Made by a program: the position numbers. From NCBI GenBank assembly GCA_027340875.1, contig DAIENX010000087.1:1-48364 (forward strand): a stretch of DNA of 48,364 bases. The letters are read 5' to 3'. This document shows, piece by piece, positions 1 to 12,000 of this stretch. Positions within the stretch are counted from its first letter, which is position 1; each line of letters starts with the position of its first letter. This DNA is from Elusimicrobiota bacterium. GTDB lineage: Bacteria > Elusimicrobiota > Elusimicrobia > Elusimicrobiales > UBA9959.

Positions 1-3000
1 ATACTCGCGATGCGCTGGAACGTGGTGATAGGCGGGCAGTTCTTCTCCAAGAGCTTCCTGGGCTTCACCACCTACAAGATGGAGCTGGCCGGCCGCGAGG
101 GCCTGTTCAGCGCCATAACGCTCGAGATCCTTCCGTTCATCATACTCGCCGGCCTCCTGTACCTCCTCCCCCCGTGGGAGAAAGAGGAGCGCGGGACGGC
201 GGCGAACGGCTAGGGACAGGGAGTCGGGAGGGAATATGAGGATATTCGGAATGGGCACGCCGGAGCTGCTGGTGATAGGCATCATCTGCCTGGTGCTCTT
301 CGGCACCAAGAGGCTGCCGGAGCTGGGCAAGACCGTGGGCGTCACGATCAAGGAGCTGAAGAAGGGCCTTAAGGAAGGCCTGGCCGACGAGCCGGCGCCC
401 GGGACCAAGGAACAGAAGTAGGCCAAGTCCGCGGCGGGCTGACGGGCAGGCCCATGCCGCCCGGCGCCCCGCCATGCCGCGATGGACCAGGAAAGGCCGC
501 TCACCGCGCATCTGGACGAGCTGAGGAAGAGACTGATCTCTTCCTCCGTCTTTTTCGCCGTCGCGGCGGGCGTTTCCTTCAACTACTCTTCGTATTTCTT
601 CCGGCTGCTGCGCAAACCCCTGGAAGGCAGCGTCCAGAAGCTGGTCTTCTTCTCCCCCACCGAGGCGCTCGCCATCTACCTGAACATCTCCTTCGCGGCC
701 GGTCTCGCGCTGTCCATGCCTTTCCTGCTGTATCAGGCCTGGAAGTTCGTGGAGCCGGCCATGACCGGCCGCCTCCGGAGGGGCCCGGTGCTGTTCGTGG
801 CCGCGGTGACCGCCTCGTTCGCGGCCGGCGTGCTGTTCTCGTTCTTCGTGCTGATACCCCCGGCGCTCAAGTTCCTGCTGGGCTTCGCCGGGCCGGACCT
901 GCAGCCGATGATCTCGGCGCAGAGCTATATCTCGTTCGTGGTCTGGACGGCCCTGGGCTGCGGCCTCGTCTTCGAGATGCCGGTGCTCAGCTACGTGCTG
1001 ACCAGGCTGGGGGTGCTGGACCACCGTTTCCTGCGCGGCAAGTACCGCTACGCGATAGTCGCCATCATGATCACGGCCGCCGTGATCACCCCGACCTCCG
1101 ACATCTTCAACATGCTGATGTTCGCGGCCCCGATGCTGGTCCTCTACGAGCTCAGCATCTGGGTCTCCCTGCTGGCCGGCGGGCCCGGCCGCTCCGACTA
1201 AAAAAGAGCGGGCCCGGCTGAACCGGGCCCGCGTTCCCCGCGCGTTGTCCGCAGCTCTCAACTGTGACAGCCGGAGCAGGTATCCTTTCCGACGTTCTTG
1301 CGCAGCGGGACCTTCTTGTGCGCGCCGATGTCGTGACAGCTGACGCAGCCCATCATCTCGGTGTGCTGCTTGTGCGGCATGGTCTTGCCGGCGATGGCGG
1401 CGATACCCATGGAAGCCGGAGGCCGCACGGTCTCGGGCGGCACCTTCACCCCGACCCGTCCGTGACACAGGGTGGCGCAGTAGCTCCCGGAGATCAGCGG
1501 CTGCGCCGACAGGTCCTTGAGCGAGGCGCCGGTCTTCTTCCCGACCTCGTTCATGGCCCTGTTGGCCAGGCGCAGCGCCTCCGAGGCCAGGTAGATGTTG
1601 TGCTCGCCGCGGCCGTAGCGCACGAAGCGCAGCTGATGCTCGGCGGAAGCCAGCTTCTCCGCAGCTTCTTTCTGGTCGGCGCCTTTTAACCCGGCCTTGG
1701 CCAGCGCGTCCTTGGCGGCCTCGAGCTTCGGCTGCAGCTCCGCGAGCGCCTTGGTCAGCTCGTCCCTGGTCTCCTCCCAGACGCCGTTGAATTTTTCGCC
1801 GTGGCACTTCACGCAGGCTCCGGAGGAGGCCTTCTCGGTGGTGCCGGAGAACTCGGCCGTGCCCGGGGCGGAATCCTTGTAGTGGCAGCCGACGCAGGCC
1901 ACCTTGGCCAGGTACATCGGGCTGGGCATGTCGGGCATTCCCAGGCCCTTTGCCTTTCCGCGGAACATCTCCTGCTGGCCGGCATGCTTGCCGCTGTGGC
2001 AGTCCGCGCAGTTGAGGGAGCCCGTTTCGGGATGGCCCTGCGGGGCAGCTTCGGCGGCCGGCGTCTCCTTGCTTTCGAGGAAGCCGTGTTTTATCTCGTC
2101 GTGGCAGTGGAAGCAGGCCACGTGGTGCTTAGTCACGTGGTTCTCGTGGATGAACGGGATGTCGCCGAAGCGCTCGAGCTTCTCGGGCTGGTTGTGGCAG
2201 GTAAAGCAGCGGTCCTTCCTCGCGTCGCCGTTGCCGCGGACCACGTCAAGGTGGCAGTTATAGCAGCTCACCTTCTGCTTCGTGACGAAGTCCTTGTGAT
2301 TATAGGTCATGTTGCCTATCTTGAAGTTCTGCGCCGGCAGGTCGTGGCAGGCGAGGCAGCCGCCAATGGGCTTCAGGTCCTTGCCGAAGCCCATGCCCTT
2401 GAAGTGGCACAGGAAGCAGGTGTCGAAAGTGACCTCCATATGCTTGCCCACCATGATCTGGGAGTGGCAGGAGGTGCAGCGCAGCTGGCGGCCGCGGCGC
2501 TTCTCCGTCAGGTGCGGGGTGTGGTCGAACTTTACGTTCTTCTCCTTGTCGTACACCTTGCCCTGCAGCAGACGGGTCGAATGGCAGCCGTTGTTGAGGC
2601 AGGCCGCGTCCTCGACCTCGGCGTAGGGCTTGGAGGAATAGGTGCGGGTGACGTACTTGACCACCTGCGACAGGGCCTGGAACTTCTGCCACATGTGGGT
2701 TTTCAGCGTGGAAGGCGGGTAGTGGCACTTCACGCAGGCTATCTTGTTGTGCTTGGAGCCGTTCCAGGCGTCGTAGTACGGCTTCATGATGTGGCAGGAA
2801 TTGCAGAAATTGGGGGTCTCGGAGTAGTGCATCATCGAGGCCGTGAGAATTAACATCAGTACCGCCCCGGCCATGACGGAAATCTTGAAGCGTGGTGAGA
2901 AATGTATATGCCACCCGTTGTCTTTGGACAAATGGATGCCGAGATGTTCGAGGAAACGGGCGAGTTTTTTCATAGGATAACTAAATTATATTTAAATTTT

Positions 3001-9000: not shown

Positions 9001-12000
9001 TAATAAGCGTCGCTGTGGCTGGAGGTCTGGTCGAAGGCGTAGTTAGCCCCGGCGTTGTACTTCTCGTTGTTCCACTCGAGACCGGCCAGGTAGCTGTTCT
9101 GGTGGTCGTTGCTGTTGGTGTGGTTGGACTTCTCGTTCTTGCCGTTCATCGCCATAGCGGAGCCGATGAAGCTCAGGCTGCCCTTTATGGGCATATAGAA
9201 GTCAGCGTTGTACTCGTCGGAGGTGGTCGGCAGGGACTCGAACATGGCCTTGTTGGCCCTGACGGCTTTGTAGCCCAGGCCCAGCTCGGCGTCCATAGGC
9301 AGGCGGATGTTCGCGCCGGCGGTATAGATGTTCTTGGTGCTCTTCCTGGCGAACTCGTTATACTGGGTGTTCGCGGCCACATAGCCGCCGTCGATGTAGG
9401 TCTGCGAGGCCGTGAAGATCTCGGTGCCCGCATGGCGGTTGTAGTTGTGGTCCAGCTTGTAGCCCAGGCTGAAGCCCAGCTTGTCGGAGAGGTCGTACTT
9501 CGCCATGAACTCGCCGGTGAAGTTGGTCTTGTCGGGCTGGGAGGTCTCGCCCTGCTTGGTGGAGGACGGGATGCTGTTCTTGACCGAGTTCATGAACCAG
9601 AAGTTGTCGTTCTCGGTGATGGTCTCGGTGCGGCCGTAGCCCTTCACGGTGACGGCGAGCTTCTCGCCGAAGCGGTGAGCGGCGCCGAGGGTGGCGGTGT
9701 AGGAACCCATCTTATAACCGCTGACCAGGGCCTCGCGGGTGCGGGACATCACGCTGCCGGTCACGCTGTAGCCCTTGAGGGGCTGCGAGCGGAAAGCCAG
9801 GCCGTGCATATCCATCCTGAAGGCGGGGGCCTTGGCCTTCTGCCAGTAGAAGGAGGCGGTGGTGGAGATCAGAACCCCGGCAGCATCGTCGGAGAAGCTG
9901 CCCTGGGTGTAATCATAGGCCACGGCGCCGTGGTCGCCCAGCTTCGCGTCGAAGCCGAGGTCCAGCAGCTTGTGGGAGCGGTCCACGTAGGTCTGCATGA
10001 CCTTGCCGGAGGACTTGGTGGCGGCGTCGCCGTTCTCCTTCTCCTCCCACTGGCCGACATGCATGGAATAGTCGCCGGTCTTGGGGCAGGTGTAGCTGAC
10101 CGACATGTCGCTCTCGGTGCGCTTGAACGACTCGTCCATCACGTTGGCGGTGTTGTACTTGCCGTTGTTCCAGCGGTCGTCGGTGATCTTCTCGTTGGTG
10201 TTGATGTAGAAGGTGCCGTTGGCGATCATCCCGGTCTTTATGTAAGGCTGCCGGTGGTACATGGTGTTCTCCGAGGCCTTTATGGCCAGGGTGCCCATGT
10301 TCAGGGAGAGCTCGCCGCTCTCCTCGCCGCTGCCGAGCCCGGCAGCGGACACGTTCAGGTAGGTCTTAGCGCCGGTGGCGGCGGCGTTGAAGCCGACCGA
10401 GCCGACCTTGAAGGTGCCGTCCTGCTTGGTGTACTCCTGGACGAGGCCCTGGTTGCCGTCGGTCTGTTTTACGAGGGCGTTCAGGGTCGCGTCCGCGCTG
10501 AGGTCCTGCGCCATCAGCGGGGAGGCCGTCGCGGCCATCATAAGCATCGCTATTAAAATACGCATTATTTATTCTCCTCTATGTTAAGATCCGATTAATG
10601 ACCGAACCCTGCGCTGGAATCGGAGCCGTGTATGTCCTTGTGGCAGTCGTAGCAGTTGCGCTTCACGAGGTCCAGGACCTTGTTGCTGAAGCCGCTGCGG
10701 CTGCTGGGCATCACGGGGACGCTGTGCTCGCTCTTGTGGCAGCGCAGGCAGAGGTACGGCTGGGCCTGCTTGAGCAGGTTCTGGTTGGCGGAGCCGTGCG
10801 GCTTGTGGCAGTTGCCGCAGTTCTCGGCCACGGGAGCGTGCTCGTGGGCGTACGGACCGGCCTTGTCGGAATGGCACTTGTAGCAGGTCTCGTTGACGGT
10901 CTCGCCGTTCAGGTTGCCCAGGGCGCCGCCGTGCGGGTTATGGCAGCCGGTGCAGGTCATCTTGCCTTCCTGCAGCGGGTGGTGGGAGGGGAGGGACATC
11001 TCGGCCTTCTTGCCCTTGTGGCAGTCGTAGCAGAGGGCGTTGACGTCCTTCTTCAGGTTCTTGGAGCCGTTGCCGTTGTGCACGCTGTGGCAGGTGTTGC
11101 AGGTCAGGCCCTTGGCGGCGTGAGTGCCGGTGTCCCACAGCATGACCTTCTTCTGGTTATGGCAGGTGAAGCAGACCGCGGAGGCATCGGAGCCCTTCTG
11201 CTTCGCCGGGTTCTTGATGGTGGCGAAGCCGGGGTTGGTCTTGTCGCCGGCGGCGGCGGCATGCAGGGAACCCGCGCCGTGGCAGGTCTCGCAGGCCTTG
11301 TCGGCGGCGATCTTCTTCACGAGCGGGATCGTCTTGCCGTGCAGCGACTTGTTGTAAGCGGCCGCCTGTTCCGAGTGGCAGGCCACGCAGGTGTCAGACC
11401 CGACGTAAGTCGCGGCCTGCTGCGCCGAGGCCGCCCCGGCGCAGACAACGAGCGCCGCCAGGGCCGCCACTATGCAGTCAAAGTTCTTAAGTTTCATTCC
11501 CTTAACCTCCGTAGATTCCGGCCTTCAAGCCGGGAACAACATGGCGCTTCTACTGTCCGCCCGCACGGGAGTGCCTTGCCCGAACAGGCTACTTCCATAA
11601 GATTATGACAAAAATATGACATATCTATGATTGACATATTTCAAGATAAAAATTGATTTAAAGCAATGAATATGTTTTGAGATATATCAAAAAAGGACGC
11701 CACGGGACACCGTGGCGGCCCTCCTCTCCTTTTAAGTATCGGGGAGGCTCAGCGGCGCGAAACCTGCTCCATCCTGGCGCGGTCCTTTATCGTGATGCTG
11801 CGGCCGGAAACCGTTATCCAGGCCTTGCGGCGGAACTCCGCGAGCAGGCGGCACAGGACTTCCGGCGAGGTGCCGAGTATCTTGGCCAGGTCGCCGCGGC
11901 TGGAAGGCAGCTCGATAGCGGCGCTGCCGGCATGGGTAGACTCCTCGAGCAGGTGCTTGGCCAGGCGGCCCTTCACCGTCTTGAAGCCGAGGTCCAGCAG

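What a model noticed while it worked through the whole genome (the two positions that open the first line are those of the whole stretch)
1258..11497. One operon with a complete quinol-to-outside electron conduit (ImcH-, CbcL-, MtrA-like cytochromes, outer-membrane barre [...]
Six consecutive genes encode: a DmsE/MtrA-family decahaem cytochrome (g00320); a 651-aa protein with a signal peptide and an outer-membrane beta-signal (g00319); a 469-aa unknown (g00318); an unannotated 11-haem cytochrome (g00317); a CbcL-like cytochrome b/multihaem fusion (g00316); and an ImcH-like 13-haem protein (g00315). I read this as a self-contained extracellular electron transfer pathway, with both Geobacter-type inner-membrane quinol oxidases plus a porin-cytochrome conduit. 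I predict that this Elusimicrobium respires insoluble Fe(III)/Mn(IV) or electrodes. To my knowledge, metal respiration has not been shown for the phylum.
Evidence so far: g00320 is named 'DmsE family decaheme c-type cytochrome'. g00316 is Cytochrome_C7+Ni_hydr_CYTB. g00315 is Cytochrom_NNT with the best Swiss-Prot name ImcH. CXXCH counts are g00315 13, g00316 11, g00317 11 and g00320 10. g00319 starts with a signal peptide and ends ...SLSLSTKF. A CRP-family regulator and a tetrahaem c554 follow. A second locus (C86 3875-24700) holds 8 more multihaem cytochromes with NHL-repeat proteins and cytochrome c maturation genes. Paired_CXXCH_1 is listed in only 13 of 42 genus genomes (relatives.tsv). 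A 2018 survey lists 2 CbcL and 0 ImcH homologs in Elusimicrobia (PMC6295460, table seen in call 69).
(Added by a program. Inside this text positions count along the whole contig: contig position 1 is position 1 of the stretch shown here. "Call 12" and the like, gene names such as g00115 and contig names such as C1 are that model's own, and its searches are not shown. The text may have been shortened before it was handed on; [...] marks where a part breaks off. The agent that wrote the report below was given it as the finding of a first reader that could run no searches.)

Follow-up and report, generated by a model that had tools for sequence, protein, structure and literature searches.

The report
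MtrAB-like electron conduit in Elusimicrobiota
A free-living Elusimicrobiota bacterium carries a gene cluster for a haem-filled outer-membrane pore joined to inner-membrane quinol-linked cytochromes, a known kind of wiring for passing respiratory electrons across the cell envelope, here in a phylum where it has not been described.

Summary
The six minus-strand genes exist as described, and the CXXCH counts (10, 11, 11, 13) are exact.

- **The barrel is now shown.** With 51 relatives, g00319 folds confidently (pLDDT 87.3) as a 26-strand barrel. Its best solved match is MtrB (Z 26.8; next 17.4).
- **The decahaem fits it.** g00320 matches MtrA (E 7.7e-47). It lies directly upstream of the barrel in all 14 related loci examined. 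It is modelled inside the barrel (ipSAE 0.91; best control 0.00).
  - g00317 is a second CbcL/MtoC/MtrH-type cytochrome c–b fusion.
  - g00315 is an NrfH-anchored 13-haem protein that fails the published ImcH features.
  - g00318 is an exported methyltransferase-fold accessory.
  - Terminator-like hairpins follow g00319 and g00316, so a single operon is not shown.
- **No surface cytochrome.** No MtrC/OmcA-type protein was found in the 92%-complete genome, so the layout is two-part, like MtoAB/PioAB.
- **Direction is open.** Outward quinol oxidation is favoured: a heterotroph with no bc1 and no cytochrome c oxidase found.

Verdict: a new member of a known kind. Metal respiration is plausible but untested.

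The parts
11749..12471 (-). CRP/FNR-family regulator with four N-terminal cysteines (residues 11, 13, 15, 23)
   Evidence: It matches Pfam cNMP_binding and HTH_Crp_2, and NCBIfam FtrB/FixK/CRP/Fnr below their cut-offs. One to three copies lie upstream of the decahaem gene in L003-L006. The cysteines were read from the translation. A role as an Fe-S redox sensor is inferred.
11631..11690 (.). Three FNR/CRP-like boxes (TTGAT-N4-ATCAA with 1-2 mismatches) in the AT-rich gap upstream of g00320
   Evidence: One search found matches at 11631-11644, 11653-11666 and 11677-11690. The whole window holds 23 matches against 5.35 expected from shuffles. The consensus is recalled, and binding was not tested. 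Sequence seen.
10595..11497 (-). g00320: periplasmic decahaem cytochrome of the DmsE/MtrA family, the proposed wire inside the barrel
   Evidence: It has 10 CXXCH. TIGR03508 scores 240.9 bits against a cut-off of 192.2. The GSU2203 family scores 259.1 bits, below its cut-off of 325. It matches chain A of the Mtr complex 6R2Q at E 7.7e-47 over residues 32-297.
8610..10565 (-). g00319: MtrB-like outer-membrane barrel of 26 strands, with no haem motif
   Evidence: The AF2 model has pLDDT 87.3 and pTM 0.80 with 26 long strands. Against 6R2Q_B, Foldseek gives E 5.6e-18 and TM 0.71/0.72, and VIA gives Z 26.8 with rmsd 3.4 A over 558 residues. In the Atlas, 22 of the 30 nearest clusters carry MtrB_PioB. 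Complex model.
8559..8586 (-). Terminator-like hairpin after g00319 (12 pairs, 10 G-C, then a T run)
   Evidence: In that region 18 such sites were found against 8.6 (sd 2.8) in shuffles. Function was not tested.
7097..8572 (-). g00318: exported protein with a class I N-methyltransferase fold; an accessory, not a core part
   Evidence: The AF2 model has pLDDT 76.2. Foldseek finds GenN 5u18 at E 3.3e-11, and also PrmC and KMT9. TIGR00537 gives E 4.5e-7, below its cut-off. It is missing from this slot in L003 and L005 but present after the barrel in G332. It occurs in 12 of 401 phylum genomes.
4967..6994 (-). g00317: first CbcL/MtoC/MtrH-type fusion (11 haem c plus a membrane cytochrome b domain)
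   Evidence: It has 11 CXXCH and C-terminal hydrophobic segments. Ni_hydr_CYTB scores 27.0 bits against a cut-off of 30.1. It is 33% identical to g00316 over 612 columns. It shares the conserved membrane histidines.
3069..4919 (-). g00316: second CbcL/MtoC/MtrH-type fusion (11 haem c plus an FdnI/HydC-like cytochrome b domain)
   Evidence: It has 11 CXXCH. Ni_hydr_CYTB scores 45.7 bits against a cut-off of 30.1. It matches FdnI 1kqf_C at E 2.3e-5. Histidines at 419, 461, 475, 569 and 584 are conserved in at least 97% of 122 sequences.
3014..3044 (-). Terminator-like hairpin after g00316 (13 pairs, 11 G-C, then T7)
   Evidence: Function was not tested.
1258..2973 (-). g00315: membrane-anchored NrfH/NapC-type cytochrome extended to 13 CXXCH (plus one CX3CH and one CX4CH)
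   Evidence: It has one hydrophobic segment at residues 25-51 and 13 CXXCH. Cytochrom_NNT scores 33.6 bits against a cut-off of 24.1. NrfH TIGR03153 gives E 1e-16 for residues 33-173, below its cut-off. PDB hits are NrfH 2j7a_C, 6i5b_A and cytochrome c7.
1208..1232 (-). Terminator-like hairpin after g00315
12630..13115 (-). Tetrahaem Cytochrome_C554-type protein with a signal-like N-terminus; a possible periplasmic carrier
   Evidence: It has 4 CXXCH. PF13435 scores 65.9 bits. It was found at this place in L003 only. A 4-haem ORF also follows the g00318 homologue in L037. The carrier role is inferred.

Best explanation
The cluster encodes a two-module electron path across the envelope of a diderm heterotroph.

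**Outer module.** The decahaem g00320 is threaded through the 26-strand barrel g00319, as MtrA is through MtrB. This gives an insulated haem wire across the outer membrane.

**Inner module.** Two tandem CbcL/MtoC/MtrH-type proteins (g00317 and g00316) each join a dihaem cytochrome b membrane domain to 11 periplasmic c haems. With them is the NrfH-anchored 13-haem g00315. Together they exchange electrons with the quinone pool and carry them into the periplasm.

**Most likely direction.** Quinol made by complex I and the ETF/beta-oxidation genes is oxidised at the inner membrane. The electrons leave through g00320/g00319 to an extracellular acceptor. Because there is no MtrC-type cap, soluble or chelated Fe(III), humics or shuttles are as likely as mineral surfaces. 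Expression is probably under the adjacent FNR-like regulator.

**What is shown and what is inferred.** Shown by computation: the families, the fold, the conserved pairing and a predicted complex. Inferred: the contacts between the modules, the direction and the substrate.

**My odds.** An MtrAB-type conduit: about 0.85. Outward flow, given the conduit: about 0.6.
For: **Outer module**
- g00320 scores over the DmsE-family cut-off (240.9 against 192.2 bits). It matches the decahaem chain of 6R2Q at E 7.7e-47.
- g00319 modelled with 51 relatives has pLDDT 87.3 and 26 long strands.
- MtrB (6R2Q_B) is by far its best solved match. TM is 0.71/0.72, against 0.48 or less for the rest. Z is 26.8, against 17.4 for the next.
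- The Atlas agrees: 22 of the 30 nearest clusters carry MtrB_PioB.
- 36 of 48 relatives match the GSU2204 family, which one review table equates with MtrB/PioB barrels.
- A decahaem gene lies directly upstream of the barrel in all 14 loci examined. These are 12 distinct loci after two apparent duplicates.
- Complex model: ipSAE 0.91 in each of 3 runs, best of 3 controls 0.00. That mark was reached by 116 of 157 solved complexes and 2 of 215 mismatched pairs. Runs agree in at least 85% of contacts, and the partner's pLDDT is 82. The interface spreads over barrel residues 21-601.

**Inner module**
- Five membrane histidines are conserved in at least 97% of 122 sequences.
- D, E and F keep their order in L003 and L005. 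CbcL-type genes lie near the pair in 6 of 12 distinct loci.

**Outward direction**
- The same window holds ETF alpha/beta, a membrane Fe-S oxidoreductase and beta-oxidation genes.
- Complex I is present.
- No bc1 cytochrome b was found.
- The only haem-copper enzyme is a qNOR.
- No RuBisCO was found.
- GSU2203/GSU2204 rose 2.68- and 2.36-fold with hematite in Geobacter (PMC4070692, Table 2, seen).
Against: - No MtrC/OmcA-type surface cytochrome is in the cluster or in any of the related loci listed. The best genome match is 27.3 bits against a cut-off of 209.3. Known two-part systems (MtoAB, PioAB) take electrons in, and MtoC is a CbcL-type protein (PMC6295460, passages).
- The complex resembles the solved 6R2Q, so the score may reflect memory of that structure. 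It shows likeness, not binding.
- g00319 itself matches neither Pfam MtrB_PioB nor TIGR03509. Profiles of its family find nothing in the PDB by sequence. Only 2 of 41 relatives pass the Pfam cut-off, and both are from the weak tail of the search.
- Terminator-like hairpins after g00319 and g00316 may split the cluster into separate transcripts.
- The genome has other electron sinks: cytochrome bd, qNOR, an octahaem Otr-family protein and an HAO-like protein.
- The genome is 92% complete with 5.5% contamination, so the absences are not proven.
- There are no expression data and no culture.
Confidence: 0.55

Rival explanations
1. The same hardware runs inwards. g00320/g00319 act like MtoAB/PioAB and take electrons from dissolved Fe(II), reduced minerals or a partner cell. 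The CbcL/MtoC-type proteins then act as quinone reductases, or pass the electrons to periplasmic reductases.
For: - The layout is two-part, with no MtrC/OmcA-type protein in the cluster, the relatives or the genome.
- CbcL/MtoC/MtrH homologues occur in both Fe(II) oxidisers and Fe(III) reducers. mtoC sits in mtoAB clusters (PMC6295460).
- The DNA is held at 0.88 or more of sampled words by 4 runs of one study labelled mine drainage metagenome. This is an iron-rich setting, but possibly the source sample itself.
- The genome has cytochrome bd, qNOR, an Otr-family octahaem and an HAO-like protein as possible sinks.
Against: - No cytochrome c oxidase (the only haem-copper enzyme is a qNOR) and no bc1 were found. 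The usual downhill and uphill branches of neutrophilic iron oxidisers are therefore missing.
- No RuBisCO was found. Other CO2-fixation routes were not searched.
- The neighbouring genes are for heterotrophic fatty-acid and branched-chain catabolism.
- The FNR-like regulator suggests anoxic induction, which is inference only.
- All absences are from a 92%-complete genome.
Confidence: 0.25
2. The cluster is not one pathway. g00320/g00319 form a separately transcribed outer-membrane unit. g00317, g00316 and g00315 form a widespread inner-membrane/periplasmic quinol:cytochrome c module that stands in for the missing complex III. This module mainly feeds periplasmic reductases (Otr, HAO-like and others).
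For: - Terminator-like hairpins follow g00319 and g00316.
- The g00316 and g00315 families are very large and span many phyla: 2762 and 1132 hits among scored candidates. The barrel family has only 58 hits.
- Nine contig lengths recur in the top lists of both large families. This suggests an E-F pairing that does not depend on the barrel, although I did not check that the contigs are the same.
- In L037 the pair has no CbcL-type gene within 20 kb at over 90 bits.
- A paralogue of g00315 on C29 lies beside NrfC/NrfD-like genes.
Against: - The order crp, decahaem, barrel, then D, E, F is kept in L003 and in L005, where the barrel is only 54% identical.
- CbcL-type genes flank the pair in 6 of 12 distinct loci across three families. 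Most of the other loci have flanks too short to judge.
- Hairpins inside operons often only attenuate or stabilise transcripts (general knowledge).
Confidence: 0.12
3. g00319 is an ordinary large porin or transporter barrel that only resembles MtrB in size. The decahaem next to it stays in the periplasm.
For: - g00319 matches no MtrB/PioB sequence model on its own.
- Large barrels of other kinds also score Z 15-17.
Against: - MtrB stands 9 Z units above all other barrels and aligns over 558 of 649 residues.
- The model has no plug domain.
- The decahaem neighbour is invariant.
- The complex model scores 0.91 against 0.00 for the controls.
Confidence: 0.05

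Closest known systems
MtrA-MtrB of the Shewanella MtrCAB complex (PDB 6R2Q)
   Same: - A decahaem of about 300 aa that matches the 6R2Q decahaem chain at E 7.7e-47.
- A barrel of about 650 aa with 26 strands, at Z 26.8 and TM 0.71 to MtrB.
- The gene order is cytochrome, then barrel.
- The cytochrome is predicted to sit inside the barrel.
   Different: - There is no MtrC/OmcA-type surface decahaem in the cluster or the genome.
- The barrel is only 12-13% identical to MtrB and is missed by the MtrB_PioB models.
- The quinol side is CbcL-type plus a long NrfH-type protein, not the tetrahaem CymA.
MtoAB(-MtoC/MtoD) and PioAB of Fe(II)-oxidising bacteria
   Same: - A two-part decahaem-plus-barrel layout with no surface cytochrome.
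- A CbcL/MtoC-type c-b fusion is encoded beside it (PMC6295460).
   Different: - The host looks like a heterotroph. No cytochrome c oxidase, bc1 or RuBisCO was found.
- There are two CbcL-type genes and a 13-haem NrfH-type protein.
- I made no phylogeny against MtoA or PioA.
GSU2203 (OmcK) / GSU2204 pair of Geobacter sulfurreducens
   Same: - NCBIfam's best match for the decahaem is the GSU2203 family (259.1 bits).
- The only match for the barrel is the GSU2204 family (E 2e-9). 36 of 48 barrel relatives match that family.
   Different: - Both scores are below the curated cut-offs (325 and 350 bits).
- The GSU2204 family is defined as a CXXCH-containing (seleno)protein, whereas g00319 has no CXXCH.
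- The Geobacter pair itself is uncharacterised. I saw only a transcript table and two other table entries.
CbcL (GSU0274) / MtoC / MtrH family of inner-membrane quinol oxidases or quinone reductases
   Same: - N-terminal multihaem c domain with a C-terminal HydC/FdnI-like cytochrome b domain and conserved histidines.
- The 2018 survey lists two Elusimicrobia members. One has locus tag A2506_03110. The next tag, A2506_03115, is a 53%-identical homologue of g00315.
   Different: - Each protein here has 11 haems, against 9 in CbcL and 20 in the two surveyed Elusimicrobia proteins.
- There are two tandem paralogues.
- I could not align them directly with GSU0274 because its sequence was not on hand.
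ImcH (GSU3259)
   Same: A membrane-anchored multihaem c-type cytochrome with a NapC/NirT-like region.
   Different: - One hydrophobic segment, not three.
- The first motif after the anchor is CXXCH, not CX3CH.
- 13 CXXCH, not 5-9.
- 571 aa, not 495-519.
- It lies in a cluster with an mtrAB-like pair. The survey found no mtrAB/mtoAB adjacent to imcH.

Membership tests
DmsE/MtrA decahaem family (TIGR03508) | Score over the curated cut-off | tested here: met
   g00320 scores 240.9 bits against a cut-off of 192.2.
DmsE/MtrA decahaem family (TIGR03508) | Ten CXXCH motifs in a secreted protein of about 300 aa | tested here: met
   10 CXXCH in 300 aa, with an N-terminal hydrophobic segment at residues 1-28.
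DmsE/MtrA decahaem family (TIGR03508) | Sequence homology to the decahaem of a solved porin-cytochrome complex | tested here: met
   6r2q_A at E 7.7e-47, residues 32-297 against 62-328. The table's molecule label for that chain is odd, and I take it to be MtrA from recall.
GSU2203 (OmcK) family, NF041028 | Score over the curated cut-off | tested here: not met
   259.1 bits against a cut-off of 325.
MtrB/PioB outer-membrane barrel (PF11854, TIGR03509) | Match to the family's sequence model | tested here: not met
   g00319 has no match at E <= 0.01. Among relatives, 7 of 48 match Pfam at E <= 0.1 and 2 of 48 match TIGR03509. Only 2 of 41 pass the Pfam cut-off.
MtrB/PioB outer-membrane barrel (PF11854, TIGR03509) | Large barrel of MtrB's fold and strand number, with no plug | tested here: met
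   26 long strands. Against 6r2q_B, TM is 0.71/0.72 and Z is 26.8 over 558 residues. The Atlas gives TM 0.84/0.77 to an MtrB_PioB cluster. MtrB's count of 26 strands is recalled.
MtrB/PioB outer-membrane barrel (PF11854, TIGR03509) | Encoded next to a decahaem gene | tested here: met
   Seen in 14 of 14 loci, which are 12 distinct loci.
MtrB/PioB outer-membrane barrel (PF11854, TIGR03509) | Sheathes the decahaem | tested here: inconclusive
   The model scores 0.91 against a best control of 0.00. This is a prediction, and it may reflect memory of the solved 6R2Q complex.
GSU2204 family, NF041027 | Score over the cut-off, and a CXXCH motif | tested here: not met
   36.8 bits against a cut-off of 350. 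g00319 has 0 CXXCH.
CbcL/MtoC/MtrH family | N-terminal multihaem c domain (3-23 CXXCH) joined to a C-terminal HydC/FdnI-like cytochrome b domain | tested here: met
   Each protein has 11 CXXCH. PF01292 scores 45.7 bits for g00316 and 27.0 bits for g00317, the latter under the cut-off of 30.1. The two are 33% identical over 612 columns. Criteria are from PMC6295460.
CbcL/MtoC/MtrH family | Conserved histidines in the membrane domain to bind the b haems | tested here: met
   Histidines at g00316 positions 419, 461, 475, 569 and 584 are conserved in at least 97% of 122 sequences and are present in g00317.
CbcL/MtoC/MtrH family | Usually six transmembrane helices | tested here: inconclusive
   A crude hydropathy scan finds 4-5 C-terminal segments. 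No dedicated predictor was available.
CbcL/MtoC/MtrH family | Direct sequence similarity to GSU0274, MtoC or MtrH | not tested
   The reference sequences were not on hand. The only link is indirect, through the survey's Elusimicrobia entries.
ImcH family | Three N-terminal transmembrane helices | tested here: not met
   One hydrophobic segment, at residues 25-51, by a crude scan. The survey notes two exceptions with one helix.
ImcH family | [quoted passage not shown] | tested here: not met
   The first motif is CXXCH at residue 57. The only CX3CH is at residue 499.
ImcH family | 5-9 CXXCH motifs (495-519 aa in the Geobacter group) | tested here: not met
   13 CXXCH in 571 aa.
ImcH family | Direct sequence similarity to GSU3259 | not tested
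The sequence was not on hand. None of the 120 listed homologues is named ImcH.
NapC/NirT/NrfH quinol dehydrogenases | N-terminal anchor plus a tetrahaem module that matches the family model | tested here: met
   PF03264 scores 33.6 bits against a cut-off of 24.1. NrfH TIGR03153 gives E 1e-16 over residues 33-173 but is under its equivalog cut-off. 2j7a_C matches at E 1.6e-5.
Three-part MtrCAB-type system | An OmcA/MtrC-family surface decahaem | tested here: not met
   The best genome match to TIGR03507 is 27.3 bits against a cut-off of 209.3. No such gene is in the cluster or in the loci. The genome is 92% complete.

The most novel reading that the evidence does not exclude
The conduit works without any surface cytochrome. 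In some lineages it is capped or served by a non-haem partner, the exported methyltransferase-fold protein g00318. That gene follows the barrel both here and in a genome of another family, where the barrel is only 26% identical but the g00318 homologue is 50% identical. This would be a DmsEFAB-like arrangement, a conduit with a non-cytochrome outer partner of a kind not known. It would sit in a phylum whose free-living members, lacking complex III and cytochrome c oxidase, would use the conduit as a main respiratory outlet.
Probability: 0.08. Interest if true: 0.75.

Novelty: new member of a known kind. Interest (0 to 1): 0.45.

Why it matters
Elusimicrobiota are known as fermenters. From genomes, they are also known as respirers of oxygen and nitrogen compounds. 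The main comparative study that I could search does not contain the words 'iron' or 'extracellular' (10.1101/765248).

A credible MtrAB-type conduit occurs in 26 of 401 sampled genomes, spread over three families. This would add extracellular electron exchange to the phylum's repertoire. It would also give free-living lineages that lack complex III a way to empty their quinone pool.

The barrel is at the edge of what current MtrB/PioB models detect. Gene-based surveys of iron cycling probably miss this clade.

The claim can be tested directly by expressing two genes in a Shewanella or E. coli host.

Tried and rejected
- **PDB by sequence.** Profiles of the barrel family (A1, A3) found nothing meaningful in the PDB. 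The link to MtrB came only from the fold.
- **Related loci.** The 10-row alignment found 4 loci.
- **Atlas on g00315.** It gave only generic cytochrome clusters and nothing about ImcH.
- **Earlier notes.** No earlier notes of this scan fitted the look-up.
- **Slot between barrel and g00317.** g00318 shows no real similarity to the 946-aa ORF that fills this slot in L003 (best E 0.10). The two fillers are therefore not the same gene.
- **C111 hit.** The match to the GSU2204 model on contig C111 is an EpsL-like 388-aa barrel, not a second conduit.
- **Expression.** No RNA holder was listed for the stretch, so expression and co-transcription could not be examined.
- **Literature.** Five searches found no paper that reports an Mtr/Mto/Pio-type conduit or metal respiration in Elusimicrobia. 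The only link is the 2018 survey's count of two CbcL homologues. The library holds open-access papers and bioRxiv only.
- **Promoters.** The sigma-70 scan found nothing useful upstream of the genes: 1 site in 12 kb against 1.8 expected.

Full report
**What is there.** All six genes lie on the minus strand, in the order g00320, g00319, g00318, g00317, g00316, g00315.
- CXXCH counts are 10, 0, 0, 11, 11 and 13. g00315 also has one CX3CH and one CX4CH.
- Only 18 ORFs in the 2.8-Mb, 112-contig genome carry three or more CXXCH. Five of them lie within the first 13 kb of this window.

**The outer-membrane pair.** g00320 passes the curated cut-off of the DmsE decahaem family (240.9 against 192.2 bits). 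It scores still higher, though below cut-off, on the GSU2203/OmcK family. It aligns with the decahaem chain of the solved Mtr complex at E 7.7e-47.

A profile search of 1.84 billion representatives found 58 relatives, 41 of them at E <= 1e-30.
- With 51 of these relatives, AlphaFold2 gave pLDDT 87.3 and pTM 0.80. The model is almost all strand, with 26 long strands.
- Foldseek's best solved match is MtrB (6R2Q_B) at E 5.6e-18 and TM 0.71/0.72. Every other barrel is at TM 0.48 or less.
- The second aligner gives Z 26.8 and rmsd 3.4 A over 558 of 649 residues. The next entry scores 17.4.
- In the ESM Atlas, 22 of the 30 nearest clusters carry MtrB_PioB.

At sequence level the link is thin.
- g00319 matches only the GSU2204 family (E 2e-9, far under cut-off).
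- 36 of 48 relatives match that family, and 7 of 48 match Pfam MtrB_PioB at E <= 0.1.
- Only two distant relatives pass the Pfam cut-off.
- A 2026 review table equates the GSU2204 family with MtrB/PioB barrels (PMC13188914, one table row seen).

A complex model of the two mature proteins scored ipSAE 0.91 in each of three runs.
- The best of three controls scored 0.00.
- That mark was reached by 116 of 157 solved complexes and 2 of 215 mismatched pairs.
- The runs agree in at least 85% of contacts, and the partner's pLDDT is 82.
- The contacts run along the whole barrel.
- Because 6R2Q is a like complex, this shows likeness, not binding.

**The inner-membrane genes.** g00316 and g00317 are tandem paralogues, 33% identical over 612 columns. 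Each has 11 c-haem motifs followed by an FdnI/HydC-type cytochrome b domain.
- Five membrane histidines are conserved in at least 97% of 122 sequences.
- 100 of the 120 best homologues also have 11 motifs.
- This is the architecture of the CbcL/MtoC/MtrH family as defined in PMC6295460 (passages seen).
- That survey's two Elusimicrobia members have 20 haems in 907 and 929 aa (supplement row).
- The locus tag next to one of them is a 53%-identical homologue of g00315.

g00315 has one membrane anchor, an NrfH/NapC-type tetrahaem start and a long extension. The extension matches 6i5b_A (E 1.1e-10) and ends in a c7-like region. I recall 6i5b as a Thermincola surface nonahaem, but the table calls it uncharacterised.

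g00315 fails the survey's ImcH features. It has one helix, not three. It has no CX3CH beside the anchor. It has 13 motifs, not 5-9. I could not align it with ImcH itself.

**g00318, transcription and control.** g00318 has a signal-like N-terminus. Its C-terminal half folds as a class I N-methyltransferase (pLDDT 76.2; GenN, PrmC and KMT9; motifs).
- It is missing from this slot in L005.
- In L003 the slot holds a 946-aa membrane protein with a spermidine-synthase domain.
- g00318 occurs in 12 of 401 phylum genomes, mostly as modules of giant ORFs.
- Yet it follows the barrel again in G332, which I cannot explain.

Strong terminator-like hairpins lie after the regulator, after g00319, after g00316 and after g00315. 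So 'one operon' is not shown.

Three FNR/CRP-like boxes lie within 60 bp upstream of g00320. The regulator has four N-terminal cysteines. Anoxic control is an inference.

**Conservation.** All named relatives are Elusimicrobiota MAGs.
- The order regulator, decahaem, barrel, [variable slot], g00317, g00316, g00315 is kept in L003 and L005. L005 has the decahaem-barrel pair duplicated in tandem.
- A decahaem gene precedes the barrel in all 14 loci examined, which are 12 distinct loci.
- CbcL-type genes are nearby in 6 of the 12. Most of the others have flanks too short to judge. L037 has none within 20 kb.
- No related locus has a surface-type multihaem gene after the barrel.
- The barrel family occurs in 26 of 401 sampled phylum genomes, including this one. 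By family that is f1 4/47, f6 7/10 and f8 14/47. It occurs in 4 of 20 other genomes of the same genus.

**Direction.** For outward flow:
- The window also encodes ETF alpha/beta, a membrane Fe-S oxidoreductase, beta-oxidation and methylcitrate genes.
- The genome has complex I and cytochrome bd.
- It has no bc1-type cytochrome b, no molybdopterin enzyme and no RuBisCO.
- Its only haem-copper enzyme is a qNOR.

For inward flow:
- The layout is two-part, with no MtrC/OmcA-family protein.
- The DNA occurs in runs labelled mine drainage metagenome: 4 runs of one study, possibly the source sample.
- Otr- and HAO-like cytochromes could serve as sinks.

The genome is 92% complete with 5.5% contamination, so absences are provisional. 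I put outward flow at about 0.6 given a working conduit.

**Novelty.** Two-part and three-part porin-cytochrome systems joined to CbcL-type proteins are known, so this is a new member of a known kind. The new points are the phylum, a barrel clade at the limit of current models, the NrfH-anchored 13-haem partner, and the recurring methyltransferase-fold neighbour. My five searches found no report of such a conduit in Elusimicrobia. The main comparative study lacks the words 'iron' and 'extracellular' (passages searched).

Noticed in passing
window 7097-8572; L037 9327-10766; giant ORFs in G371, G148, G386, G350, G372 and G319: The g00318 methyltransferase-fold domain recurs up to three times inside giant ORFs of 2048-9309 aa in other Elusimicrobiota. 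As a single gene it follows the MtrB-like barrel in two different families.
   Followed up: partly
L005 8130-14233: The decahaem-barrel pair is duplicated in tandem in an Elusimicrobiales MAG. Both barrel copies give identical tblastn figures against the window's protein.
   Followed up: no
window 8610-10565 against L003 4963-6909: Between this genome and its closest relative the barrel is the most diverged protein of the neighbourhood, at 82% identity. Its neighbours range from 92% to 100%. This would fit surface-exposed loops under diversifying pressure.
   Followed up: no
L003 6980-9820: In the sister genome the slot between the barrel and the first CbcL-type gene holds a 946-aa multi-pass membrane protein with a spermidine-synthase domain instead of g00318. 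The two are not similar.
   Followed up: partly
G000 contig C29 1-5440 (L011): A paralogue of g00315 (13 CXXCH, cut by the contig start) lies beside NrfD-like and NrfC/DsrO-like genes and a 4-haem ORF.
   Followed up: no
G000 contigs C21, C65, C87 (L010, L012, L013): Three further multihaem systems were seen. The first is an Hmc-like set: a 12-haem protein with HmcB- and HmcC-like partners. The second is an octahaem tetrathionate-reductase-family protein (563.7 bits, over its cut-off) with a cytochrome b. The third is an HAO/HDH-like octahaem protein.
   Followed up: no
window 19607-27365 and 29101-32355: ETF alpha/beta is followed by a 659-aa membrane protein with NarI-like, 4Fe-4S and CCG domains, then a full beta-oxidation set. 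Further on is a 1084-aa fused B12-binding/MeaB/mutase protein of the IcmF type.
   Followed up: no
window 11749-12471 and L004-L006: The CRP/FNR-type regulator occurs in one to three tandem copies upstream of the decahaem gene in relatives.
   Followed up: no
L038 2844-4756, L039 3966-5838, L040 4575-5648: In other families the decahaem-barrel pair lies among ORFs that resemble cytochrome c biogenesis and glutamyl-tRNA reductase genes, rather than next to a g00315-type gene. I judged these ORFs by size and N-terminal sequence only and did not scan them against families.
   Followed up: no
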